A DNA stretch of 64,000 bases from a virus (IMGVR_UViG_3300027976_000020:1-64000); one strand, 5' to 3'; numbered from the stretch's first letter, positions 2,926 to 60,782 are shown. Numbers and translations are program-made. Notes: a model not told the origin generated them from the sequence alone.

Positions 2926-3852
2926 TTACCATCCTTCTTGACTGCGTATTACATCAATCTCTCGTACAGCAACACCGCGGTTATGCCAGTTGCTACGGTA
3001 ATGGTGTTTGAAGAATTTGCTAGTGGGTTCATCAAACCACACCATTGGCAAGTCCAACTGTGTGCCAAGTTCTTCTGCCACTTTGCTTAATACAATTTCT
3101 GGATCAGTATCTTTGACTGTGTCCCACAATTGTTCAAGTGCAGCAAAGTCTTGTACTGTACGATAGTCCCAATCTGTCAACATGGTCATGTAAGTGCCCA
3201 TGCGCGAGCCTGCCATGCTCCAAACACCATGTTCCGCATCTCGGCCCACATTGTGCCATACAGTTAAGTTGTCAAGATTGCGTTTGTGTGCGCGGTCTTT
3301 GAATTCAGCCAAGGTGGGTTTTTTGCCCACATTCAAACACATCTTGACACCTTCTCTAAAGCCGGCTCTCCAGGCATGAAAAGCAGATCCATTTGGAAAT
3401 GTAGTTGAATAGCAATCGTGCATGGCCCAGTACAACGGATCAAAACAAAATTCTACTTCTGTGGCTTCGCGACCATCTGTGGCTTCGTGTGTTTGCATTT
3501 CGTTGGCAAACTTTCTTGTCCAAGAACTCAATCCACCGTTGCCGTACATCAAGCCATTGACATGATTGCGTGCTCGCCAACGAAACACAGCCGATTCCCA
3601 TTGTTCAGTTGGTAGTTCTAATGTTAGATTAAAGAACTCTGGATCCGGCATGTTGTCACCATCGATCAATACAAAGCGTTCTGTTTCGCTTGCGGCGGCT
3701 GCTGCTTTGTGTGCAGCATCGCTTCCTTTAACTCCGTCGACGCGTTTGGCCCACGGAACCATGTTGCGAATCTTCACCCAGAATTCTTCTTTCTGCGGCT
3801 CGTCGTATGTCAAGTAAATGCAGTCAAGGTCTGCAATATCAATCCGATTCAT
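2926..3852 (-). CDS. Putative GT-A fold glycosyltransferase
   Basis: LIDGD (DxD) after hydrophobic strand; YGNGG; WRAGFREGVK. Confidence 0.6.
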   Translation of the reverse strand: MNRIDIADLDCIYLTYDEPQKEEFWVKIRNMVPWAKRVDGVKGSDAAHKAAAAASETERFVLIDGDNMPDPEFFNLTLELPTEQWESAVFRWRARNHVNGLMYGNGGLSSWTRKFANEMQTHEATDGREATEVEFCFDPLYWAMHDCYSTTFPNGSAFHAWRAGFREGVKMCLNVGKKPTLAEFKDRAHKRNLDNLTVWHNVGRDAEHGVWSMAGSRMGTYMTMLTDWDYRTVQDFAALEQLWDTVKDTDPEIVLSKVAEELGTQLDLPMVWFDEPTSKFFKHHYRSNWHNRGVAVREIDVIRSQEGW

Positions 3853-39482: not shown

Positions 39483-41564
39483 ATGATCCAAATTCGTAAT
39501 CTTACTGTAAAAAACTTCATGAGCGTGGGCAATGCTACCCAGGCTATTGACTTTGACCGCAACGACCTGACATTGGTACTAGGCGAAAATCTTGACATGG
39601 GTGGCGACGGAAGTCGCAACGGCACAGGCAAGACCACAATTATCAACGCACTTAGCTATGCGCTGTACGGGACAGCACTCAGCAATATCCGCAAGGATAA
39701 CTTGGTCAACAAAACCAATGCTAAAAACATGATGGTCAGTTTGGACTTTGGAGTAGGTGGTAAAGAATACAGAATTGAACGCGGTCGCAAACCCAATGTA
39801 CTACGGTTCTACATAAACAATCAAGAACAAGAAGCAACAGACAACGCACAAGGTGACAGTCGCGAGACTCAGCAGGCCATTGAACGCACACTCGGACTCA
39901 GTCACGATATGTTCAAGCATATTTTGGCACTGAACACTTACACTGAACCGTTTTTGAGTTTGAGAGCCAACGACCAAAGAACAATCATTGAGCAACTGCT
40001 GGGCATTACCCTGCTGAGTGAACGTGCTGATCGTATCAAAGAACTCAATCGCGAAACCAAGGACGGCATTTCACAAGAAGAATTCCGTATTCGCGCTGTA
40101 CAAGAAGCCAACAAACGAATTGAAGAACAAATTGACAGTTTGAAACGCAGACTAGCACTTTGGCAAAAAAAGCACAACGATGATCTGGCTTACTTGGTAA
40201 AGAAGCACGACCATCTTAAAGAAATTGATATTGATGTTGAATTGCAAGCACACAAAGATCTAGCAATTTGGAACACAGCAAAACAGCAACAAGATGCATA
40301 TACTGCATTGCTTGCCAGGCAGACCACTTGGAAACAAAAGCAACTAAACGATGTTACTGATCTCAATGATAGTTATGTCAAGCTCGGTTATATTGACATT
40401 GTTGCTGAATTACAGTCACATGTTGATGTAGCTGCATATGTTCAAAAGTCAAAAGACATTACTGAGCTGAAGTCACTGATTGCCAGATGCGAATCAGACG
40501 AAAAAAAGGAAACCAAAGTTGTTGCCAAGATCAAGGCAGAAATTGCAGATCTAACGGACCACAAGTGTTATGCATGTGGTCAAGATTTTCACGACGCCAA
40601 TTATGCTGCAGTAATGACTGCTAAAAATGCAGCACTACAAGAAGCGGCGTTGCAAGTACTTGCAACAAACGGTCAATGGATAGAGCACACAGAGTCACTT
40701 GCTGTGCTAGGGCCATTGGGCAAATTGCCCACTACCCATTATAAAACACAAACTGAAGCAATTCGGCATTCAGGCGATTTAAAAAATATCTATCAGCAGA
40801 TCAACGCTCGGACAAATGAAGTAGATCCGTATGCTGATCAATTGATGGAACACTCTGGTGTGGTGCTGAGCACACAGCCAAAAACTCATTACGACACAGA
40901 AACAGAGGCAATTGATCATCGTAGTCAGTGCAACAACTATCTATACCAAATTGAAACTAAAAACAACGATACTGATCCATATACTGAGCAGATTGAAGAA
41001 ATGCAAGCACAAGCATTGCAGGAAGTCAGCTACGACACAGTTAACGAACTTACCCGACTACAAGAGCATCAAGAGTTTTTGTTAAAGTTATTAACCAGCA
41101 AAGACAGTTTTATTCGTAAGAAGATCATTGAACAAAACCTAAGTTACTTAAATACAAGACTTACATATTATCTTGATCGTATTGGGTTGCCGCACACTGT
41201 TGTGTTTCAAAATGATCTGAGCGTAAGTATCGAAGAATTAGGACGTGAATTAGACTTTGACAATTTGAGTCGTGGTGAACGCAATAGACTTATACTCAGT
41301 ATGAGTTGGGCGTTCCGTGATGTGTACGAAAGTTTATACCAACCAATCAACGTGTTGTTTATTGACGAAATGATTGATTCTGGCATGGACACACAAGGTG
41401 TCGAAAACAGTTTGGCATTGCTCAAGCACATGAGCCGAGAGCGTCACAAGAGCATCTGGCTAGTGAGTCACAGAGACGAACTAGCAGGCCGTGTTGAGAA
41501 CATTCTTAAAGTGGTCAAAGAAAACGGCTTTACCAGCTACAATACGTATGTCGAATTACCATAA
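39483..41564 (+). CDS. gp46: Recombination ATPase subunit (gp46, Rad50/SbcC-like)
   Basis: KNFMSVGN, Walker A NGTGKT, zinc hook CYACG, signature LSRGE, Walker B FIDE, VSH. Confidence 0.93.
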   Translation: MIQIRNLTVKNFMSVGNATQAIDFDRNDLTLVLGENLDMGGDGSRNGTGKTTIINALSYALYGTALSNIRKDNLVNKTNAKNMMVSLDFGVGGKEYRIERGRKPNVLRFYINNQEQEATDNAQGDSRETQQAIERTLGLSHDMFKHILALNTYTEPFLSLRANDQRTIIEQLLGITLLSERADRIKELNRETKDGISQEEFRIRAVQEANKRIEEQIDSLKRRLALWQKKHNDDLAYLVKKHDHLKEIDIDVELQAHKDLAIWNTAKQQQDAYTALLARQTTWKQKQLNDVTDLNDSYVKLGYIDIVAELQSHVDVAAYVQKSKDITELKSLIARCESDEKKETKVVAKIKAEIADLTDHKCYACGQDFHDANYAAVMTAKNAALQEAALQVLATNGQWIEHTESLAVLGPLGKLPTTHYKTQTEAIRHSGDLKNIYQQINARTNEVDPYADQLMEHSGVVLSTQPKTHYDTETEAIDHRSQCNNYLYQIETKNNDTDPYTEQIEEMQAQALQEVSYDTVNELTRLQEHQEFLLKLLTSKDSFIRKKIIEQNLSYLNTRLTYYLDRIGLPHTVVFQNDLSVSIEELGRELDFDNLSRGERNRLILSMSWAFRDVYESLYQPINVLFIDEMIDSGMDTQGVENSLALLKHMSRERHKSIWLVSHRDELAGRVENILKVVKENGFTSYNTYVELP

Positions 41565-44691: not shown

Positions 44692-45266
44692 AATATATGA
44701 TAACAGGCGGCAATAGAGGACTAGGCGAAGCACTGTGTGCTCATTACAATGGTGACAGTTATAGTCGCAACAGTGGTTACGACATTACCAAAGACCGAGA
44801 AAAATTAGTAGAGGCAAGTTTACAATACGATGTGTTTGTTAACAATGCGTTTGACGGACCTTTTCAAGAATCGTGGGCCGACTTTGCACAAGTTAAATTA
44901 TTGTTTGATGTTGCTACAGCATGGAAAAATGCCAACAAAATTGGCCACATCATCAACATTGGTAGCTCTGGAAGTGAATCTATTGTGGCACCGGCCCCTG
45001 CATGGGAAACTTACCGTGTCAGCAAAGCAGCCTTAAAACATCATAGTTTACAATGGACACAAGCGTTCAAAACAAACCAAGCACCGTTTAGAACAAGTCT
45101 AATCACATTGGATCGATTAGACACTGTACTAAGCCGTAGTCGTCCAAACTGGACAGGCAACGGTATTGATTTGTCCGATGTGAGCAATATGATCGACACT
45201 TGCATTAGCGTAAAAAACAACACCTGCATAGGCGAAATTACTGCCTGGGTAAACTTTGACGCATAA
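44688..45266 (+). CDS. Short-chain dehydrogenase/reductase
   Basis: TGGNRGLG, NNA, INIGS, YRVSK (YxxxK); ATGA-coupled start at 44688. Confidence 0.85.
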   Translation: MKYMITGGNRGLGEALCAHYNGDSYSRNSGYDITKDREKLVEASLQYDVFVNNAFDGPFQESWADFAQVKLLFDVATAWKNANKIGHIINIGSSGSESIVAPAPAWETYRVSKAALKHHSLQWTQAFKTNQAPFRTSLITLDRLDTVLSRSRPNWTGNGIDLSDVSNMIDTCISVKNNTCIGEITAWVNFDA

Positions 45267-45341
45267 TCACTAAAAATATAATACTAATTCATCAACAGGC
45301 ATAACTATACAACATAACAGGCAACTCATCAAATAAAACAC

Positions 45342-45776
45342 ATGACATCATGGTACTATCAAAACATCTCAGTTGAGACATTACCCGAAGAATGTGTTGG
45401 ATTTGTATACTTAATCACAAATAATCTCTCCGGACGCAAGTACATAGGCAAAAAATTAGCAAAGTTCTCAAAAACATCAGTAAAAGTAGTAAAACAAAAG
45501 AACGGCATCAAAAAGAAAAAGCGCATACGCACAAAAATCGACAGTGATTGGCGTGAGTACTACGGATCAAGTATTGATCTAGCCGCAGACATCTTAACTT
45601 TAGGCACCGAAAACTTCTCCAGAGAAATACTTTATTATTGCGCATCCAAGGCAGCATGTTCATACATTGAAGCCAGAGAACAGTTCAATAGAAAAGTATT
45701 GGAATCAGACGATTATTACAATGGACAAATCAGTGTACGTGTACACGGTAGTCACATCAAAAACAAAACACTTTAA
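45342..45776 (+). CDS. Compact GIY-YIG family endonuclease
   Basis: GFVYLITN..RKYIGKK, YYGS, FSREIL, E..EQ, YYN; very basic insertion KVVKQKNGIKKKKRIRTK. Confidence 0.8.
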   Translation: MTSWYYQNISVETLPEECVGFVYLITNNLSGRKYIGKKLAKFSKTSVKVVKQKNGIKKKKRIRTKIDSDWREYYGSSIDLAADILTLGTENFSREILYYCASKAACSYIEAREQFNRKVLESDDYYNGQISVRVHGSHIKNKTL

Positions 45777-45780
45777 ATTC

Positions 45781-46106
45781 GATTACGACTCTGTGTTGGG
45801 TGCAATGGCCCAACCCCATTGAAGAACGGTGCAATACCCGGTCCGGACTTGGGTGTCAAAGGACAATGCTAACTTAAGGCAACAAATGGTTTGGGCTATG
45901 TGAAAAAGATACACCCCATGCTTATAGGACTTCGATTTATTATGGGGTCACTAGGGTTCCGTTGATACGTGAAGCTAGAGTAAGGGGTACCGGTCAACCG
46001 CCTCTGTGTAAGCAATTACAATCTCTTGATAATAAAGGCTGCTACACTCAGATAATGCTGTAAAAACCTTTTCACCGTGCATACGGTGAATTGTGACTGC
46101 GTAATC
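45781..46106 (+). ncRNA. Candidate large structured non-coding RNA downstream of the GIY-YIG gene
   Basis: No ORF in the track; terminal helix GATTACG/CGTAATC; many internal helices; a GCAA tetraloop; strand inferred from context and the tetraloop. Confidence 0.5.
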
Positions 46107-46173
46107 TAGATAATACTAGATACATTGATTGTTCTAACAAATAAAAAAAATTGATGAACGAAGTGAAATCAAT

Positions 46174-46191
46174 AGACTTGCTAGCAAGTCT
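46174..46191. repeat. Perfect 18-bp palindrome at a convergent gene junction
   Basis: AGACTTGCTAGCAAGTCT. Confidence 0.85.
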
Positions 46192-46728
46192 TTAACGTAT
46201 AGATAACTCTTTTAATTTGTTTATGTAATGCTTTTCACCTAAGGAAACTGTGTGTTTCCAATCTACATTTGCATTGCTGTCGGCTAAATCTGAGATATAT
46301 TTAAAACAAGTAAATTCTATTTTTGAATATTGGCATGCTTTGGCTATAGCATATGCTTCCATGTCAACCAAGTCTGCGGGTATTTCCAATACAGGATTGG
46401 ATACAAAATTATCTCCTGTGCTGCACGTGATACCATCAATGCCTATGGCTATATCTGATTCAAATGGCGTTTGTCCTGCTTTAAGTCCAAACGCTTTACA
46501 ATCCATGTCTCGCTGAACAAAGCGTGTGCACTGATACAATCCTGTGCCCACAGTGATACCACCTGCTGTACCAAAGTTTATAATGTGCTTTGGTTTGTAT
46601 TGTTCAATAAGACGGGCAGTACACAAGGCCGCATTGACCTTGCCTACTCCTGTAAAAAATACATTATCTCGGTGTTGTAACTCCAGCGGTGCTTCGTTGC
46701 TGATAGCAATCAAGATAATGGTATCCAT
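46192..46728 (-). CDS. mtnN: 5'-methylthioadenosine/SAH nucleosidase (PNP_UDP_1 family)
   Basis: GVGKVNAA, INFGTAG, STGDNF, VDMEAYAIA, ISD; TAATG-coupled ATG at 46728. Confidence 0.85.
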   Translation of the reverse strand: MDTIILIAISNEAPLELQHRDNVFFTGVGKVNAALCTARLIEQYKPKHIINFGTAGGITVGTGLYQCTRFVQRDMDCKAFGLKAGQTPFESDIAIGIDGITCSTGDNFVSNPVLEIPADLVDMEAYAIAKACQYSKIEFTCFKYISDLADSNANVDWKHTVSLGEKHYINKLKELSIR

Positions 46729-57509: not shown

Positions 57510-58235
57510 ATGAAACTAATACACGAAATAAAACCATACACATACTTGATCCGGTGCAAAGTAACCGGAGAAGTATATTATGGAAGCAGAACCAAGAATG
57601 TAAAACTCAAAAGAACCCCTGCAGAGGACTTGATGCTGTACTATCAAACAAGTAGTAAACTTGTTAAGAACATGATACAACATCACGGGATAGAAAACTT
57701 TGAGTGGGAAGTACGCAGAACCTTTGACGACGTCAATACTACCGGGCTGTGGGAGAACAGAGTGTTGCGTCGTTGCCGGGTATTAGAAAATGATATCTGG
57801 TTAAATGCAAATCTAGCTAGTAAAAAAGAACTTACAAAAGCCGGTGCTAAAATAATCAGCAAAATTCACAAGGATAAGCCTAAGTCAGAAGAACATAAAA
57901 AAAATTTAAGTACTTCTCAAAAAGGTAAACCCAAAAAATCAACAGTGTATCAAAGTGAAGACTATCGAAGAAACATGTCTAAACTAAAATCCGGCCCAGG
58001 CAATGCTATGTACGGAAAACCCTGTTCGGAAGAAAGAGCTGCAAACATCAGTGCCGCTAAAAAAGCGCAAAACTTAACAGCCTATAATAAAGATATTCCA
58101 ATGACACAAGCACAAAAAGACAAAATAGCCGCTACTAAAGAAAAAAATAAAGTTATGCTAACCTGTGAAGTATGTGGCAAAACTATGCGTCAATCCAACT
58201 TCAAACAATACGGGCACGGACCCAACTGCACATGA
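57510..58235 (+). CDS. Free-standing homing endonuclease (GIY-YIG-like with NUMOD3-like repeats)
   Basis: YTYLI..YYGSR, WLN; SEEHKKNLS/SEERAANIS repeats; NAMYGK; C-terminal CEVCG. Confidence 0.75.
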   Translation: MKLIHEIKPYTYLIRCKVTGEVYYGSRTKNVKLKRTPAEDLMLYYQTSSKLVKNMIQHHGIENFEWEVRRTFDDVNTTGLWENRVLRRCRVLENDIWLNANLASKKELTKAGAKIISKIHKDKPKSEEHKKNLSTSQKGKPKKSTVYQSEDYRRNMSKLKSGPGNAMYGKPCSEERAANISAAKKAQNLTAYNKDIPMTQAQKDKIAATKEKNKVMLTCEVCGKTMRQSNFKQYGHGPNCT

Positions 58236-59894: not shown

Positions 59895-59987
59895 TAAATA
59901 CTTGTCAACACAATACGGTGTTTTATGCGGCACACCAGCCGCGTAGTAGCTAGAACCTACATCGGACTTCTTTAAGGAGAAAACAAC
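59895..59987 (+). promoter_or_regulatory. Late promoter plus structured 5' leader
   Basis: TAAATA 59895-59900, three tandem hairpins, AAGGAG RBS. Confidence 0.55.
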
Positions 59988-60782
59988 ATGGGACGTCCTC
60001 TAAAAATTCAAAAATACAACGTAGTCACATCAACACCAATTGATCAAGGCTATGCTCCATTTGGTGCTCCCACTTCAATGGACACAAGTACTGTTGTACT
60101 TCCACAACCAATTACACTACCGTTTCCATTCAGTGGAGTAGTCGGCGGCATTGACAGTGCAGGCGTCAGCGCTACATATCCTATTGTTTCTGTAACAGTG
60201 AATATTGTAAACAGCTTCTCTGGTGCAGCCGCAGGCGCAATTATTCGTCAGAAAGGTGCTCGTAAGTATCTAGTGGCAACCACAACTCCTATTGATCCTG
60301 CAAACGCAGTAGTGGGTGTTGCTCTTCAAATTGCAGCGGTTGGCAACACAGACTGGCAAGCAATGGGCGCGCCATACGGTGCTGCAATTGGTACACTGTT
60401 TACCCCAACAGTGGCCTCTGCAGGTGGTTCAACTGGTACAGCATTCGAAGTTGGTCAGTGCGTGTTGGCAGCCGCTGCGATTCCAACTGCTGGCAATATG
60501 AACATTGCTATGGCAGTTGCTGACGACAGTACCAACGTTTTCATCAGCAAGTTGACCAACAAGTTTGTGCAAGACTTCAACGGTGGCGGCGCCGGCGGTG
60601 TTGCTAGTACTGGCGATGTATGGGATTACGCTGCTACAGTTGACAACATTGACTACGCAGCCAACTTCTTCACTGATTCGTCAACATTTGCCAAGTCAGG
60701 CGCAGAAGTTTCTACATGGGCCGGAACCCAGCAAAACAGCAATGGCACATTGGGCCTAGCACAAGTTGACAGTACAACCTAA
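59988..60782 (+). CDS. Virion structural protein (head decoration-like)
   Basis: MGRPLK start, IIRQKGARKYLV; strong RBS, late promoter and own terminator. Confidence 0.6.
   Translation: MGRPLKIQKYNVVTSTPIDQGYAPFGAPTSMDTSTVVLPQPITLPFPFSGVVGGIDSAGVSATYPIVSVTVNIVNSFSGAAAGAIIRQKGARKYLVATTTPIDPANAVVGVALQIAAVGNTDWQAMGAPYGAAIGTLFTPTVASAGGSTGTAFEVGQCVLAAAAIPTAGNMNIAMAVADDSTNVFISKLTNKFVQDFNGGGAGGVASTGDVWDYAATVDNIDYAANFFTDSSTFAKSGAEVSTWAGTQQNSNGTLGLAQVDSTT

What the first reader, a model, noticed from the sequence alone, without database searches (positions are those of the whole stretch)
45342..46106. Compact GIY-YIG nuclease immediately followed by a ~330-nt structured RNA-like element (candidate nuclease-ncRNA system)
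Seen: in an otherwise gene-dense genome, 415 nt with no ORF in the track follow the 144-aa GIY-YIG gene. Starting 5 nt after its stop, GATTACG (45781-87) can pair with CGTAATC (46100-06), closing a domain full of helices: GTTGGG/CCCAAC (45795-45814); TGTC/GACA; ACCCCAT/ATGGGGT (45913-48), or alternatively long-range TTTATTAT (45936-43)/ATAATAAA (46029-36); AGGGG/CCTCT around CGGT-CA-ACCG (45983-46005); TGTAA-GCAA-TTACA with a GNRA loop (46007-20); TTCACCGT-GCAT-ACGGTGAA (46071-90). The nuclease lacks the NUMOD-type DNA-binding tail seen in 57510..58235 and instead has a Lys/Arg-rich insertion. Its upstream spacer has AACAGGCA x2 and TCATCAA x2. Known: nuclease plus adjacent structured RNA is the layout of HEARO and OMEGA (IscB/TnpB) systems. 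Inference: an RNP in which the RNA scaffolds, guides or regulates the nuclease, or a new ribozyme or origin-associated RNA.
Basis: partly seen in the sequence, partly recalled or inferred. Interest (0 to 1): 0.85.

Follow-up and report, generated by a model that had tools for sequence, protein, structure and literature searches.

The report
Twin-box structured phage RNA behind nuclease gene
The gene-free stretch behind a small nuclease gene of this uncultured T4-like lake phage encodes a real, knotted non-coding RNA of about 400 bases that shows the same 7-letter word twice; it is an uncatalogued sister form of the orphan Polynucleobacter-1 RNA, its job is unknown, and nothing shows that it guides the nuclease.

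Summary
Observation confirmed. Window 45787-46191 (+) is a conserved, non-coding, strongly structured RNA gene. A 25-sequence alignment supports 82 pairs: 94% of cells paired, 41 pairs changed on both sides, 0 of 500 shuffles as good, and two pseudoknots. No ORF is conserved and Rfam gives no hit even at E<=10.

The RNA is modular. A 5' head of about 170 nt (unmatched in Rfam here) joins a shared body and 3' tail. In at least 16 close relatives the same slot, behind a 71-79% identical GIY-YIG gene, holds Polynucleobacter-1 (RF01718) as the head, with the same tail. A third head type also exists.

The tail carries two "boxes" (AGATAAT at 46050-56 and 46108-14). At least 20 different words occur among relatives, and the two copies are identical in about 97% of RNAs. 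No complementary partner was found.

The nuclease link is strong synteny, probably with co-transcription. Of 99 informative loci, 79 have the GIY-YIG gene, 14 have a PD-(D/E)XK nuclease instead and 6 have neither. It is not obligate: 443 phage records carry the nuclease, and the four cultured relatives checked lack the tail.

Earlier agents of this scan reached the same reading on other DNA.

The parts
45301..45309 (+). ATAACTATA word about 33 nt before the nuclease start codon; candidate promoter of the nuclease-RNA unit
   Evidence: Present at the same distance in most relatives' upstream regions. The only other exact copy in the window lies just before the gp26-like baseplate gene. A promoter role is inferred.
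45342..45776 (+). 144-aa domain-only GIY-YIG nuclease gene (SegE_GIY-YIG, phrog_447)
   Evidence: Pfam E 1.6e-30 over the full profile; PHROGs hit; 37% identical to P-SSM2 PSSM2_218.
45787..45953 (+). 5' head of the RNA (window type). Helices: P1 45787-89/45855-57, Ha 45795-45814, Hb/Hc 45815-45853, He 45866-45882, Hf 45892-45918, Hg 45925-45953
   Evidence: Covariation per helix. No Rfam match at E<=10. Replaced by Polynucleobacter-1 or by a third head in relatives.
45954..46026 (+). Shared body: Hh 45954-45976; three-way junction Hi 45977-80/46023-26 enclosing Hj 45983-46005 and the GNRA-capped Hk 46008-46019. Pseudoknot PK2 pairs 45961-66 with 45993-98
   Evidence: PK2 is 100% paired with 2 pairs changed on both sides. 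Hi, Hj and Hk covary. The Hj/PK2 equivalent is readable in Polynucleobacter-1-headed relatives.
45937..46035 (+). Pseudoknot PK1: the Hg loop 45937-42 pairs with 46030-35
   Evidence: 92% paired, 4 of 6 pairs changed on both sides (helix 9).
46035..46070 (+). Box-1 hairpin. The loop holds ACTC (46046-49) plus box 1, AGATAAT (46050-56)
   Evidence: A hairpin encloses box 1 in 91% of 77 relatives, against 61% with shuffled flanks. The box is mostly unpaired.
46071..46090 (+). Hm hairpin TTCACCGT-GCAT-ACGGTGAA, lying between the two boxes
   Evidence: Kept as a perfect 6-9 bp hairpin with different sequences across all head types.
46104..46114 (+). ATCT plus box 2, AGATAAT (46108-14), in an unpaired stretch after TGAC
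   Evidence: Identical to box 1 in 83-87 of 89 aligned RNAs at each of the 7 positions; at least 20 different words occur. No local hairpin beyond chance.
46150..46173 (+). Small hairpin ATTGAT/ATCAAT with the conserved loop GA(A/G)CG..AG(T/C)GAAA
   Evidence: All 6 pairs are changed on both sides in some sequences. Present behind all three head types and in the 2010 Polynucleobacter-1 flanks.
46174..46191 (.). Terminator-like hairpin AGACTTGC-TA-GCAAGTCT, shared with the convergent minus-strand gene that ends at 46192
   Evidence: The stem covaries by eye in A1. The scan scores it as terminator-like on the minus strand. Use on the + strand is inferred.

Best explanation
The gap is the gene of a pseudoknotted non-coding RNA of about 400 nt, read from the + strand.

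Shown: it starts a few bases after the stop codon of the small GIY-YIG nuclease gene and ends at a hairpin shared with the convergent operon. It is modular. An exchangeable 5' head (unmatched in Rfam here; Polynucleobacter-1, RF01718, in many sister phages; a third form in others) is joined to a constant body and a constant 3' 'twin-box' tail. The tail runs: hairpin with ACUC plus a 7-nt word in its loop, then a stable hairpin, then UGAC...AUCU plus the same 7-nt word in an unpaired stretch, then a small GAGCG..GCGAAA hairpin, then a terminator.

Inferred: it is made as the 3' extension of the nuclease transcript.

Inferred mechanism: the constant tail is the working part. The folded head and body hold or stabilise it. 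The two identical words act as a lineage-specific address that one and the same partner reads twice, most likely a nucleic acid. On this view the RNA acts in trans as a recognition or regulatory RNA of the phage. The neighbouring nuclease (GIY-YIG, or PD-(D/E)XK in other lineages) is a syntenic, co-expressed gene of the gp46 recombination block, not an RNA-guided enzyme.
For: - Conservation without an ORF.
- 41 of 82 pairs changed on both sides; 0 of 500 shuffles as good; G-U pairs fit the + strand only.
- More than 120 IMG/VR loci carry the RNA. Only three 'prokaryote' hits were found, all on short or phage-like MAG contigs.
- The RNA starts within -17 to +20 nt of an upstream stop codon in about 66 of 89 loci.
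- Head swapping behind near-identical nuclease genes: RF01718 scores 70-120 bits in 16 relatives, each with the same tail.
- The flanks of the 2010 Polynucleobacter-1 alignment show ACUC-AGCGAAAG ... AUCU-AGCGAAA. The authors noted the position downstream of PSSM2_218-like genes, and that gene is this GIY-YIG family.
- Box identity: at least 20 words. Independent pairs go the same way in about 10 of 10 and 8 of 8 cases (p 0.002 and 0.008).
- Box 1 is displayed in a hairpin loop.
- Metatranscriptome contigs from four studies cover the RNA (weak evidence).
Against: - No partner was found. There is no complement inside the RNA, none enriched within 1.5 kb, and no enrichment of the word or its complement in 741 kb of flanks.
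- A<->G toggles at word positions 1 and 5 would be neutral against a U in a common partner, yet mixed states are almost absent. Simple pairing with one partner therefore does not by itself explain the identity.
- Transcript ends, processing and strand are not shown: the RNA-library data are contigs and may include DNA.
- The 95% adjacency to a nuclease gene from two unrelated folds could mean a functional link that these data cannot see.
Confidence: 0.5

Rival explanations
1. RNA-nuclease partnership. The RNA binds the adjacent small nuclease (GIY-YIG or PD-(D/E)XK), and the twin words aim or license cleavage, for example at a symmetric or repeated DNA site or at its own locus.
For: - 93 of 99 informative RNA loci have a small nuclease gene next to the RNA on the same strand, drawn from two unrelated folds.
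- 55 of 58 close GIY-YIG loci with enough downstream sequence carry the tail.
- The RNA starts right after the stop codon.
- It has short hypervariable words.
Against: - The nuclease family is in 443 phage records. The three cultured members checked (Melnitz, BUCT-ZZ01, P-SSM2) and the Variovorax phage hit lack the tail.
- At least 4 RNA loci have no nuclease neighbour, and 15 have inserted genes between the two.
- All loci share one gene order, so adjacency may be inherited.
- The words are only 7-8 nt, and no target or complement was found.
- The basic loop of the protein does not track the RNA.
Confidence: 0.1
2. Cis-acting 3' UTR element. The fold protects or processes the 3' end of the nuclease/gp46-block transcript, or insulates it from the convergent operon. 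There is no trans target.
For: - Position directly after a stop codon at the junction of convergent transcription units.
- Terminator-like hairpins at the end.
- Contigs from RNA libraries bridge gene and RNA.
Against: - About 400 nt with two pseudoknots, a GNRA loop, invariant loops and swappable heads is far more than 3'-end protection needs.
- Twin-word identity has no role in this model.
- The RNA follows unrelated genes in several loci.
Confidence: 0.15
3. Self-processing or enzyme-processed RNA. Both words mark equivalent cut-and-join sites, so that the segment of about 55 nt holding hairpin Hm is excised, possibly as a circle, or the two sites are exchanged. Identity is needed because the junction must recreate the word.
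For: - The identity itself, rather than complementarity, is conserved.
- Constant spacing of 49-58 nt, with a constant hairpin between the words.
- A complex conserved fold, as in ribozymes.
Against: - No joint between the boxes was seen in four RNA runs, though these are contigs only.
- No match to any known ribozyme family.
- No internal guide was found.
Confidence: 0.08
4. A DNA-level element embedded in the RNA gene. The two identical words flanking a palindrome would act as protein-binding repeats, a recombination or slippage site, or a start site for recombination-dependent replication next to the gp46 block.
For: - Identity of short direct repeats is what iterons and recombination cores require.
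- A perfect palindrome lies between them.
- Recombination genes and nucleases are the neighbours.
Against: - No deleted (single-box) alleles among about 130 tails, and no such joint in the laid runs.
- No recombinase or Rep gene is linked.
- The region around the boxes behaves as RNA, with covarying hairpins that include G-U pairs.
Confidence: 0.07
5. Decayed C-terminal DNA-binding domain of a once longer Seg-type homing endonuclease (a pseudogene remnant), or a group I intron, tmRNA or RNase P relative.
For: Seg endonucleases are usually 200-250 aa, and the ORF here stops at 144 aa.
Against: - Homologues of 130-145 aa are the family norm.
- No frame is conserved.
- Compensatory base changes show selection for RNA pairing.
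- Rfam and ARAGORN find nothing.
- There are no exons on either side.
Confidence: 0.01

Closest known systems
Polynucleobacter-1 RNA motif (Rfam RF01718; Weinberg et al. 2010, PMC2864571)
   Same: - Same genomic slot: directly downstream of the PSSM2_218-type GIY-YIG gene, as noted in the 2010 supplement and confirmed here.
- Same body (the Hj-type hairpin and its pseudoknot partner CCGUYR).
- Same twin-box tail, small GAGCG..GCGAAA hairpin and terminator. These are seen in L201, L058, 14 further loci and the published flanks.
- Orphan RNA with unknown function, from freshwater and estuary samples.
   Different: - The 141-nt motif itself is absent here: no match even at E<=10.
- The window has an unrelated-looking head of about 170 nt with its own helices and a pseudoknot to the body.
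- The tail and the twin boxes were not described in 2010, and the only paper found that names the motif is the 2010 one.
HEARO / OMEGA RNAs (IscB, TnpB)
   Same: A structured RNA next to a small nuclease gene, with a short variable segment near one end.
   Different: - The protein is a GIY-YIG (or PD-(D/E)XK), not a RuvC/HNH IscB or a TnpB.
- No transposon ends were noticed.
- There is no Rfam match.
- The variable part is 7-8 nt and occurs twice; it is not a single 16-20-nt guide.
- The nuclease family is common without the RNA.
Phage P4 immunity RNA logic (seqA/seqC direct repeats both read by seqB of CI RNA); from general knowledge, not tested
   Same: Two identical short sequences on one transcript that differ between related phages.
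   Different: In P4 the complementary reader lies on the same transcript. Here no complement exists in the RNA or within 1.5 kb. The RNA here is about five times larger and elaborately folded.
cow-rumen-2 RNA (RF02947)
   Same: Shares the hairpin module GGGGUAC-N-G-NNN-AACCGCCUC (L180).
   Different: The rest of the RNA is unrelated: there are no twin boxes, and the family does not match the window.

Membership tests
Polynucleobacter-1 (RF01718) | Match to the Rfam covariance model at or above 37 bits | tested here: not met
   No match in window 45200-46250 even at E<=10. By contrast, 16 relatives score 70-120 bits in the same slot.
Polynucleobacter-1 (RF01718) | Lies downstream of a PSSM2_218-like gene (2010 supplement) | tested here: met
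   PSSM2_218 is SegE_GIY-YIG (E 5.6e-54) and 37% identical to the window protein (E 1e-19).
Polynucleobacter-1 (RF01718) | Same downstream body and twin-box tail as in bona fide members | tested here: met
   The tail model R1, built from all head types, scores 74.6 bits at 46024-46117; the window sequence is part of the model, so this is partly by construction. The tail can be read in L201, L058 and the published flanks.
HEARO / OMEGA (IscB or TnpB with omega RNA) | IscB or TnpB nuclease encoded next to the RNA | tested here: not met
   Pfam finds only SegE_GIY-YIG in the window protein, and PDDEXK_15 in the alternative neighbour.
HEARO / OMEGA (IscB or TnpB with omega RNA) | Match to the HEARO or other omega RNA models | tested here: not met
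   No Rfam match.
Group I intron | Intron core fold, flanking exons of one gene | tested here: not met
   No Rfam match at E<=10. The upstream ORF ends in a stop, the downstream gene is on the other strand, and contexts vary.
tRNA / tmRNA | Detected by ARAGORN | tested here: not met
   No genes found in the window.
SegE-type GIY-YIG nuclease domain (PF19835) | Full-length match above the curated cut-off | tested here: met
   106 bits against a cut-off of 25, profile positions 1-123 of 123.
Free-standing Seg homing endonuclease | C-terminal DNA-binding domain (NUMOD or similar), patchy mobile distribution | tested here: not met
   The protein is domain-only at 144 aa. Homologues of the same length occur in 443 phage records. 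The NUMOD3-bearing paralogue lies elsewhere, at 57510-58235.

The most novel reading that the evidence does not exclude
The twin-box RNA and the neighbouring small nuclease (GIY-YIG or PD-(D/E)XK, interchangeably) form a new kind of RNA-directed nuclease system. In it, two identical 7-8-nt words on a folded scaffold pick a symmetric or repeated DNA site, possibly the phage's own locus, to start recombination-dependent replication or to discriminate self from rival phages.
Probability: 0.08. Interest if true: 0.92.

Novelty: new variant of a known kind. Interest (0 to 1): 0.62.

Why it matters
Large, elaborately folded bacterial and phage RNAs of unknown function are rare, and they have repeatedly led to new biochemistry. 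This one is abundant in uncultured T4-like lake and estuary phages.

It shows that the orphan Polynucleobacter-1 motif of 2010 is only one of at least three exchangeable heads of a larger RNA. It also carries a feature with no ready explanation: two copies of a 7-nt word that differs from phage to phage but stays identical within each RNA. That pattern points to a specificity code that mutation of one or both boxes could test directly.

It also sharpens an open question: why do two unrelated small nucleases sit in front of the same RNA?

Tried and rejected
- Pseudogene of a longer Seg endonuclease: no conserved frame, and short homologues are the norm.
- Known RNA families: Rfam at gathering threshold and at E<=10, and ARAGORN, found nothing.
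- Single-sequence folding energy is uninformative (z about -1 on both strands).
- RNAalifold's long-range helix GTCA(45855)/TGAC(46093) is invariant and breaks in L040/L021. I replaced it with the covarying 3-bp P1, 45787-89/45855-57.
- An internal complement to the boxes, allowing G-U pairs and one mismatch: no consistent site.
- Complement within 1.5 kb, or own word or complement in 741 kb of flanks: not enriched.
- AGATAAT looked enriched in the window (19 found, 7.8 expected from shuffles). A higher-order expectation gives 14.3, so it is not significant.
- Translational bypass (take-off and landing sites as in T4 gene 60): there is no conserved ORF into box 1 or out of box 2.
- Cultured relatives: no DNA match in 50,697 phage records. 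No tail in Melnitz, BUCT-ZZ01, P-SSM2 or the Variovorax phage; the weak BUCT-ZZ01 hit has no twin boxes and looks coding by eye.
- Prokaryote genomes: 46 pattern hits, of which 43 are chance.
- RNA libraries: contigs cover the gene and the RNA but give no ends, strand or level. The higher depth at 45926-46039 comes from several relatives' contigs.
- The full-length covariance model was not attempted because of the calibration limit; only the 91-position tail model was built.
- A genome-wide search for a co-varying partner in pairs of near-identical genomes was not possible. The large contigs held here are either identical or less than 88% alike.
- PDB sequence search for the nuclease: nothing meaningful.

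Full report
**Setting.** The window is part of a 79.6-kb IMG/VR viral contig, estimated 23% complete, from a T4-like phage. The gp46 (Rad50-like) gene lies at 39483-41540. Two radical-SAM genes, an SDR-like gene and the 144-aa ORF at 45342-45776 follow on the + strand. A convergent minus-strand block then runs from a Pfs-type nucleosidase (ending at 46192) up to a gp26-like baseplate gene. The nearest cultured relative of the ORF is in Methylophilales phage Melnitz, at 48% aa identity.

**The protein.** The ORF is a complete, domain-only SegE-type GIY-YIG (PF19835, E 1.6e-30). Being compact is normal for this family. Homologues of 130-145 aa occur in 443 phage records, mostly cyanomyoviruses, including P-SSM2 PSSM2_218 (37% identity). 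The Lys/Arg-rich stretch is a basic loop found in all members. It is a few residues longer in this subgroup and does not track presence of the RNA.

**Is the RNA real?**
- Folding the single sequence says nothing (z -0.9).
- Comparison is decisive. Of 80 IMG/VR loci fetched with the protein, about 30 matched the gap at 77-87% nucleotide identity. None of the six frames stays open across homologues.
- RNAalifold on 25 sequences gave 81 pairs, 38 of them with compensatory changes.
- I revised the structure using mutual information from 96 unique sequences. The revised structure has 82 pairs in 17 helices, 94.3% of cells paired and 41 pairs changed on both sides. No shuffle of 500 was as good, and partners slid by 1-3 columns gave only 6-14 such pairs.
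- Two pseudoknots are supported. The Hg loop 45937-42 pairs with 46030-35. The segment 45961-66 pairs with the Hj loop 45993-98.
- Conserved G-U pairs fit the + strand only.
- Rfam has no match for the stretch even at E<=10, and ARAGORN finds nothing.

**Distribution.**
- A 21-nt pattern from hairpin Hj found more than 120 IMG/VR loci, giving 95 unique full RNAs at 60-89% identity.
- In 596 Gb of prokaryote genomes, only three of 46 pattern hits are real. All three lie on MAG contigs. The two long ones each carry the GIY-YIG gene plus the RNA in shared gene order, so they are two related phages.
- No cultured phage has a similar sequence.
- A tail model found nothing in Melnitz, BUCT-ZZ01, P-SSM2 or a Variovorax phage.

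**Modular build and the link to Polynucleobacter-1.** Notes from earlier agents of this scan pointed to RF01718, so I tested it.
- The window does not match the model.
- L201, L058 and 14 further loci do match. Their GIY-YIG proteins are 71-79% identical to the window's. Each carries a full-length Polynucleobacter-1 motif (70-120 bits) starting 10-40 nt after the nuclease gene.
- About 150 nt further on, they have the same body and tail as the window.
- A third, unmatched head occurs in L071, L018, L025 and L057.
- The 2010 supplement states that Polynucleobacter-1 RNAs lie downstream of PSSM2_218-like genes. The flanks in its Stockholm file show ACUC-AGCGAAAG ... hairpin ... AUCU-AGCGAAA and the small GAGCG..GCGAAA hairpin.
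- So the published motif is one of at least three exchangeable heads of a larger RNA, and the window carries a different head.
- L180, picked up by the pattern, is a cow-rumen-2 RNA that shares only the Hj-type hairpin.

**The twin boxes.** I found these independently, before reading the earlier notes.
- The strongest non-pairing signal in the mutual-information scan was identity between two sites 58 nt apart: AGATAAT at 46050-56, preceded by ACTC, and at 46108-14, preceded by ATCT.
- Relatives carry at least 20 different words: AGATGAT, GGATAAT, ACGAAAT, ATGAAGAG, ATAGCAG, GTCGGAA, ACATGAA, TGGTAAT, AGCGAAA and others. The two copies agree at each position in 83-87 of 89 aligned RNAs.
- The tree excluded the box regions. 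On it, word positions 1 and 5 each changed at least 18 times in both boxes. Independent pairs on supported branches went the same way in about 10 of 10 and 8 of 8 cases (p 0.002 and 0.008).
- Recombination of the whole tail could inflate those counts, because the two boxes are linked. The number of distinct words still demands about 20 concerted changes.
- Box 1 sits in the loop of a hairpin: 91% of 77 sequences against 61% with shuffled flanks. Box 2 lies in an unpaired stretch.
- A perfect hairpin (Hm) always lies between the boxes, which are spaced 49-58 nt apart in nearly all tails.
- I found no complementary partner. None is in the RNA, none is enriched within 1.5 kb, and neither the word nor its complement is enriched in 741 kb of flanks.
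- The apparent excess of AGATAAT in the window disappears under a higher-order expectation.

**The nuclease link.**
- Among 99 informative RNA loci found without using any protein, 79 have the GIY-YIG gene upstream on the same strand, 15 of them with 1-2 kb in between.
- Fourteen have a PDDEXK_15 nuclease instead (phrog_244, annotated as a RusA-like Holliday-junction resolvase).
- Six have neither, and one of those is the cow-rumen-2 locus.
- Conversely, 55 of 58 close GIY-YIG loci with enough downstream sequence carry a tail.
- The RNA model starts within -17 to +20 nt of an upstream stop codon in about 66 of 89 loci. There is seldom room for a promoter of its own.
- A conserved ATAACTATA word lies before the nuclease gene.
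- This fits co-transcription and conserved synteny: gp46 block, then a small nuclease, then the RNA, then the convergent baseplate genes.
- Since the nuclease family is widespread and the cultured members checked lack the RNA, and the RNA can occur without the nuclease, an obligate RNP is not supported. It is also not excluded.

**Expression.** Fourteen metatranscriptome runs from six studies hold part of the stretch. Contigs from four studies cover both the gene and the RNA. They give no ends or strand, and they may include DNA.

**Reading.** The stretch is a real RNA gene. It belongs to an uncatalogued sister form of an orphan family. I take the constant twin-box tail to be the working part: an address that one partner reads twice. 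The partner and the purpose remain unknown.

The rivals cannot be separated with the present data. They are a cis 3'-UTR role, a nuclease RNP, processing at the two boxes, and a DNA-level element. Earlier agents of this scan reached the same overall reading on other genomes.

Noticed in passing
window 45301-45309 (+) and 49079-49071 (-): ATAACTATA lies about 33 nt before the GIY-YIG start and is conserved in most relatives. The only other exact copy in the window sits just before the gp26-like baseplate gene. It is a candidate phage promoter word.
   Followed up: partly
L096, L101, L109, L140, L158 and others, upstream of the RNA: The slot between the gp46 block and the RNA is filled either by the GIY-YIG gene (79 loci) or by an unrelated PDDEXK_15 / phrog_244 'RusA-like resolvase' gene (14 loci). 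This looks like non-orthologous replacement, and both may be the phage's junction-resolving nuclease.
   Followed up: partly
window 59906-59990 (+): A freshwater-2 RNA (RF02980, 69 bits) lies directly upstream of an ATG at 59989. A second copy is in relative L201.
   Followed up: no
L180 6895-7001: A cow-rumen-2 RNA (RF02947) contains the same hairpin module, GGGGUACAGGAUAACCGCCUC, as hairpin Hj of this RNA. It may be a shared RNA building block.
   Followed up: no
window 46150-46173: A small covarying hairpin with the loop GA(A/G)CG..AG(T/C)GAAA is kept behind all three head types and in the 2010 Polynucleobacter-1 flanks. In the Polynucleobacter type its AGCGAAA equals the box word.
   Followed up: partly
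window 57510-58235 (+): A second, longer GIY-YIG ORF (241 aa) with a weak NUMOD3 match; it looks like an ordinary Seg-type homing endonuclease.
   Followed up: partly
L018, L025, L057 (about 2930-3200): An ORF of about 85 aa with a CxxC motif is inserted between the GIY-YIG gene and the third-type RNA head.
   Followed up: no
L219 and L226 (MAG 'Haliscomenobacter sp. EUL_031'): Two contigs of 148 and 183 kb in one bacterial MAG each carry the GIY-YIG gene plus the RNA in shared gene order, at 75% identity. They are two related phages binned with a bacterium.
   Followed up: partly
Their meaning is unknown.
   Followed up: no
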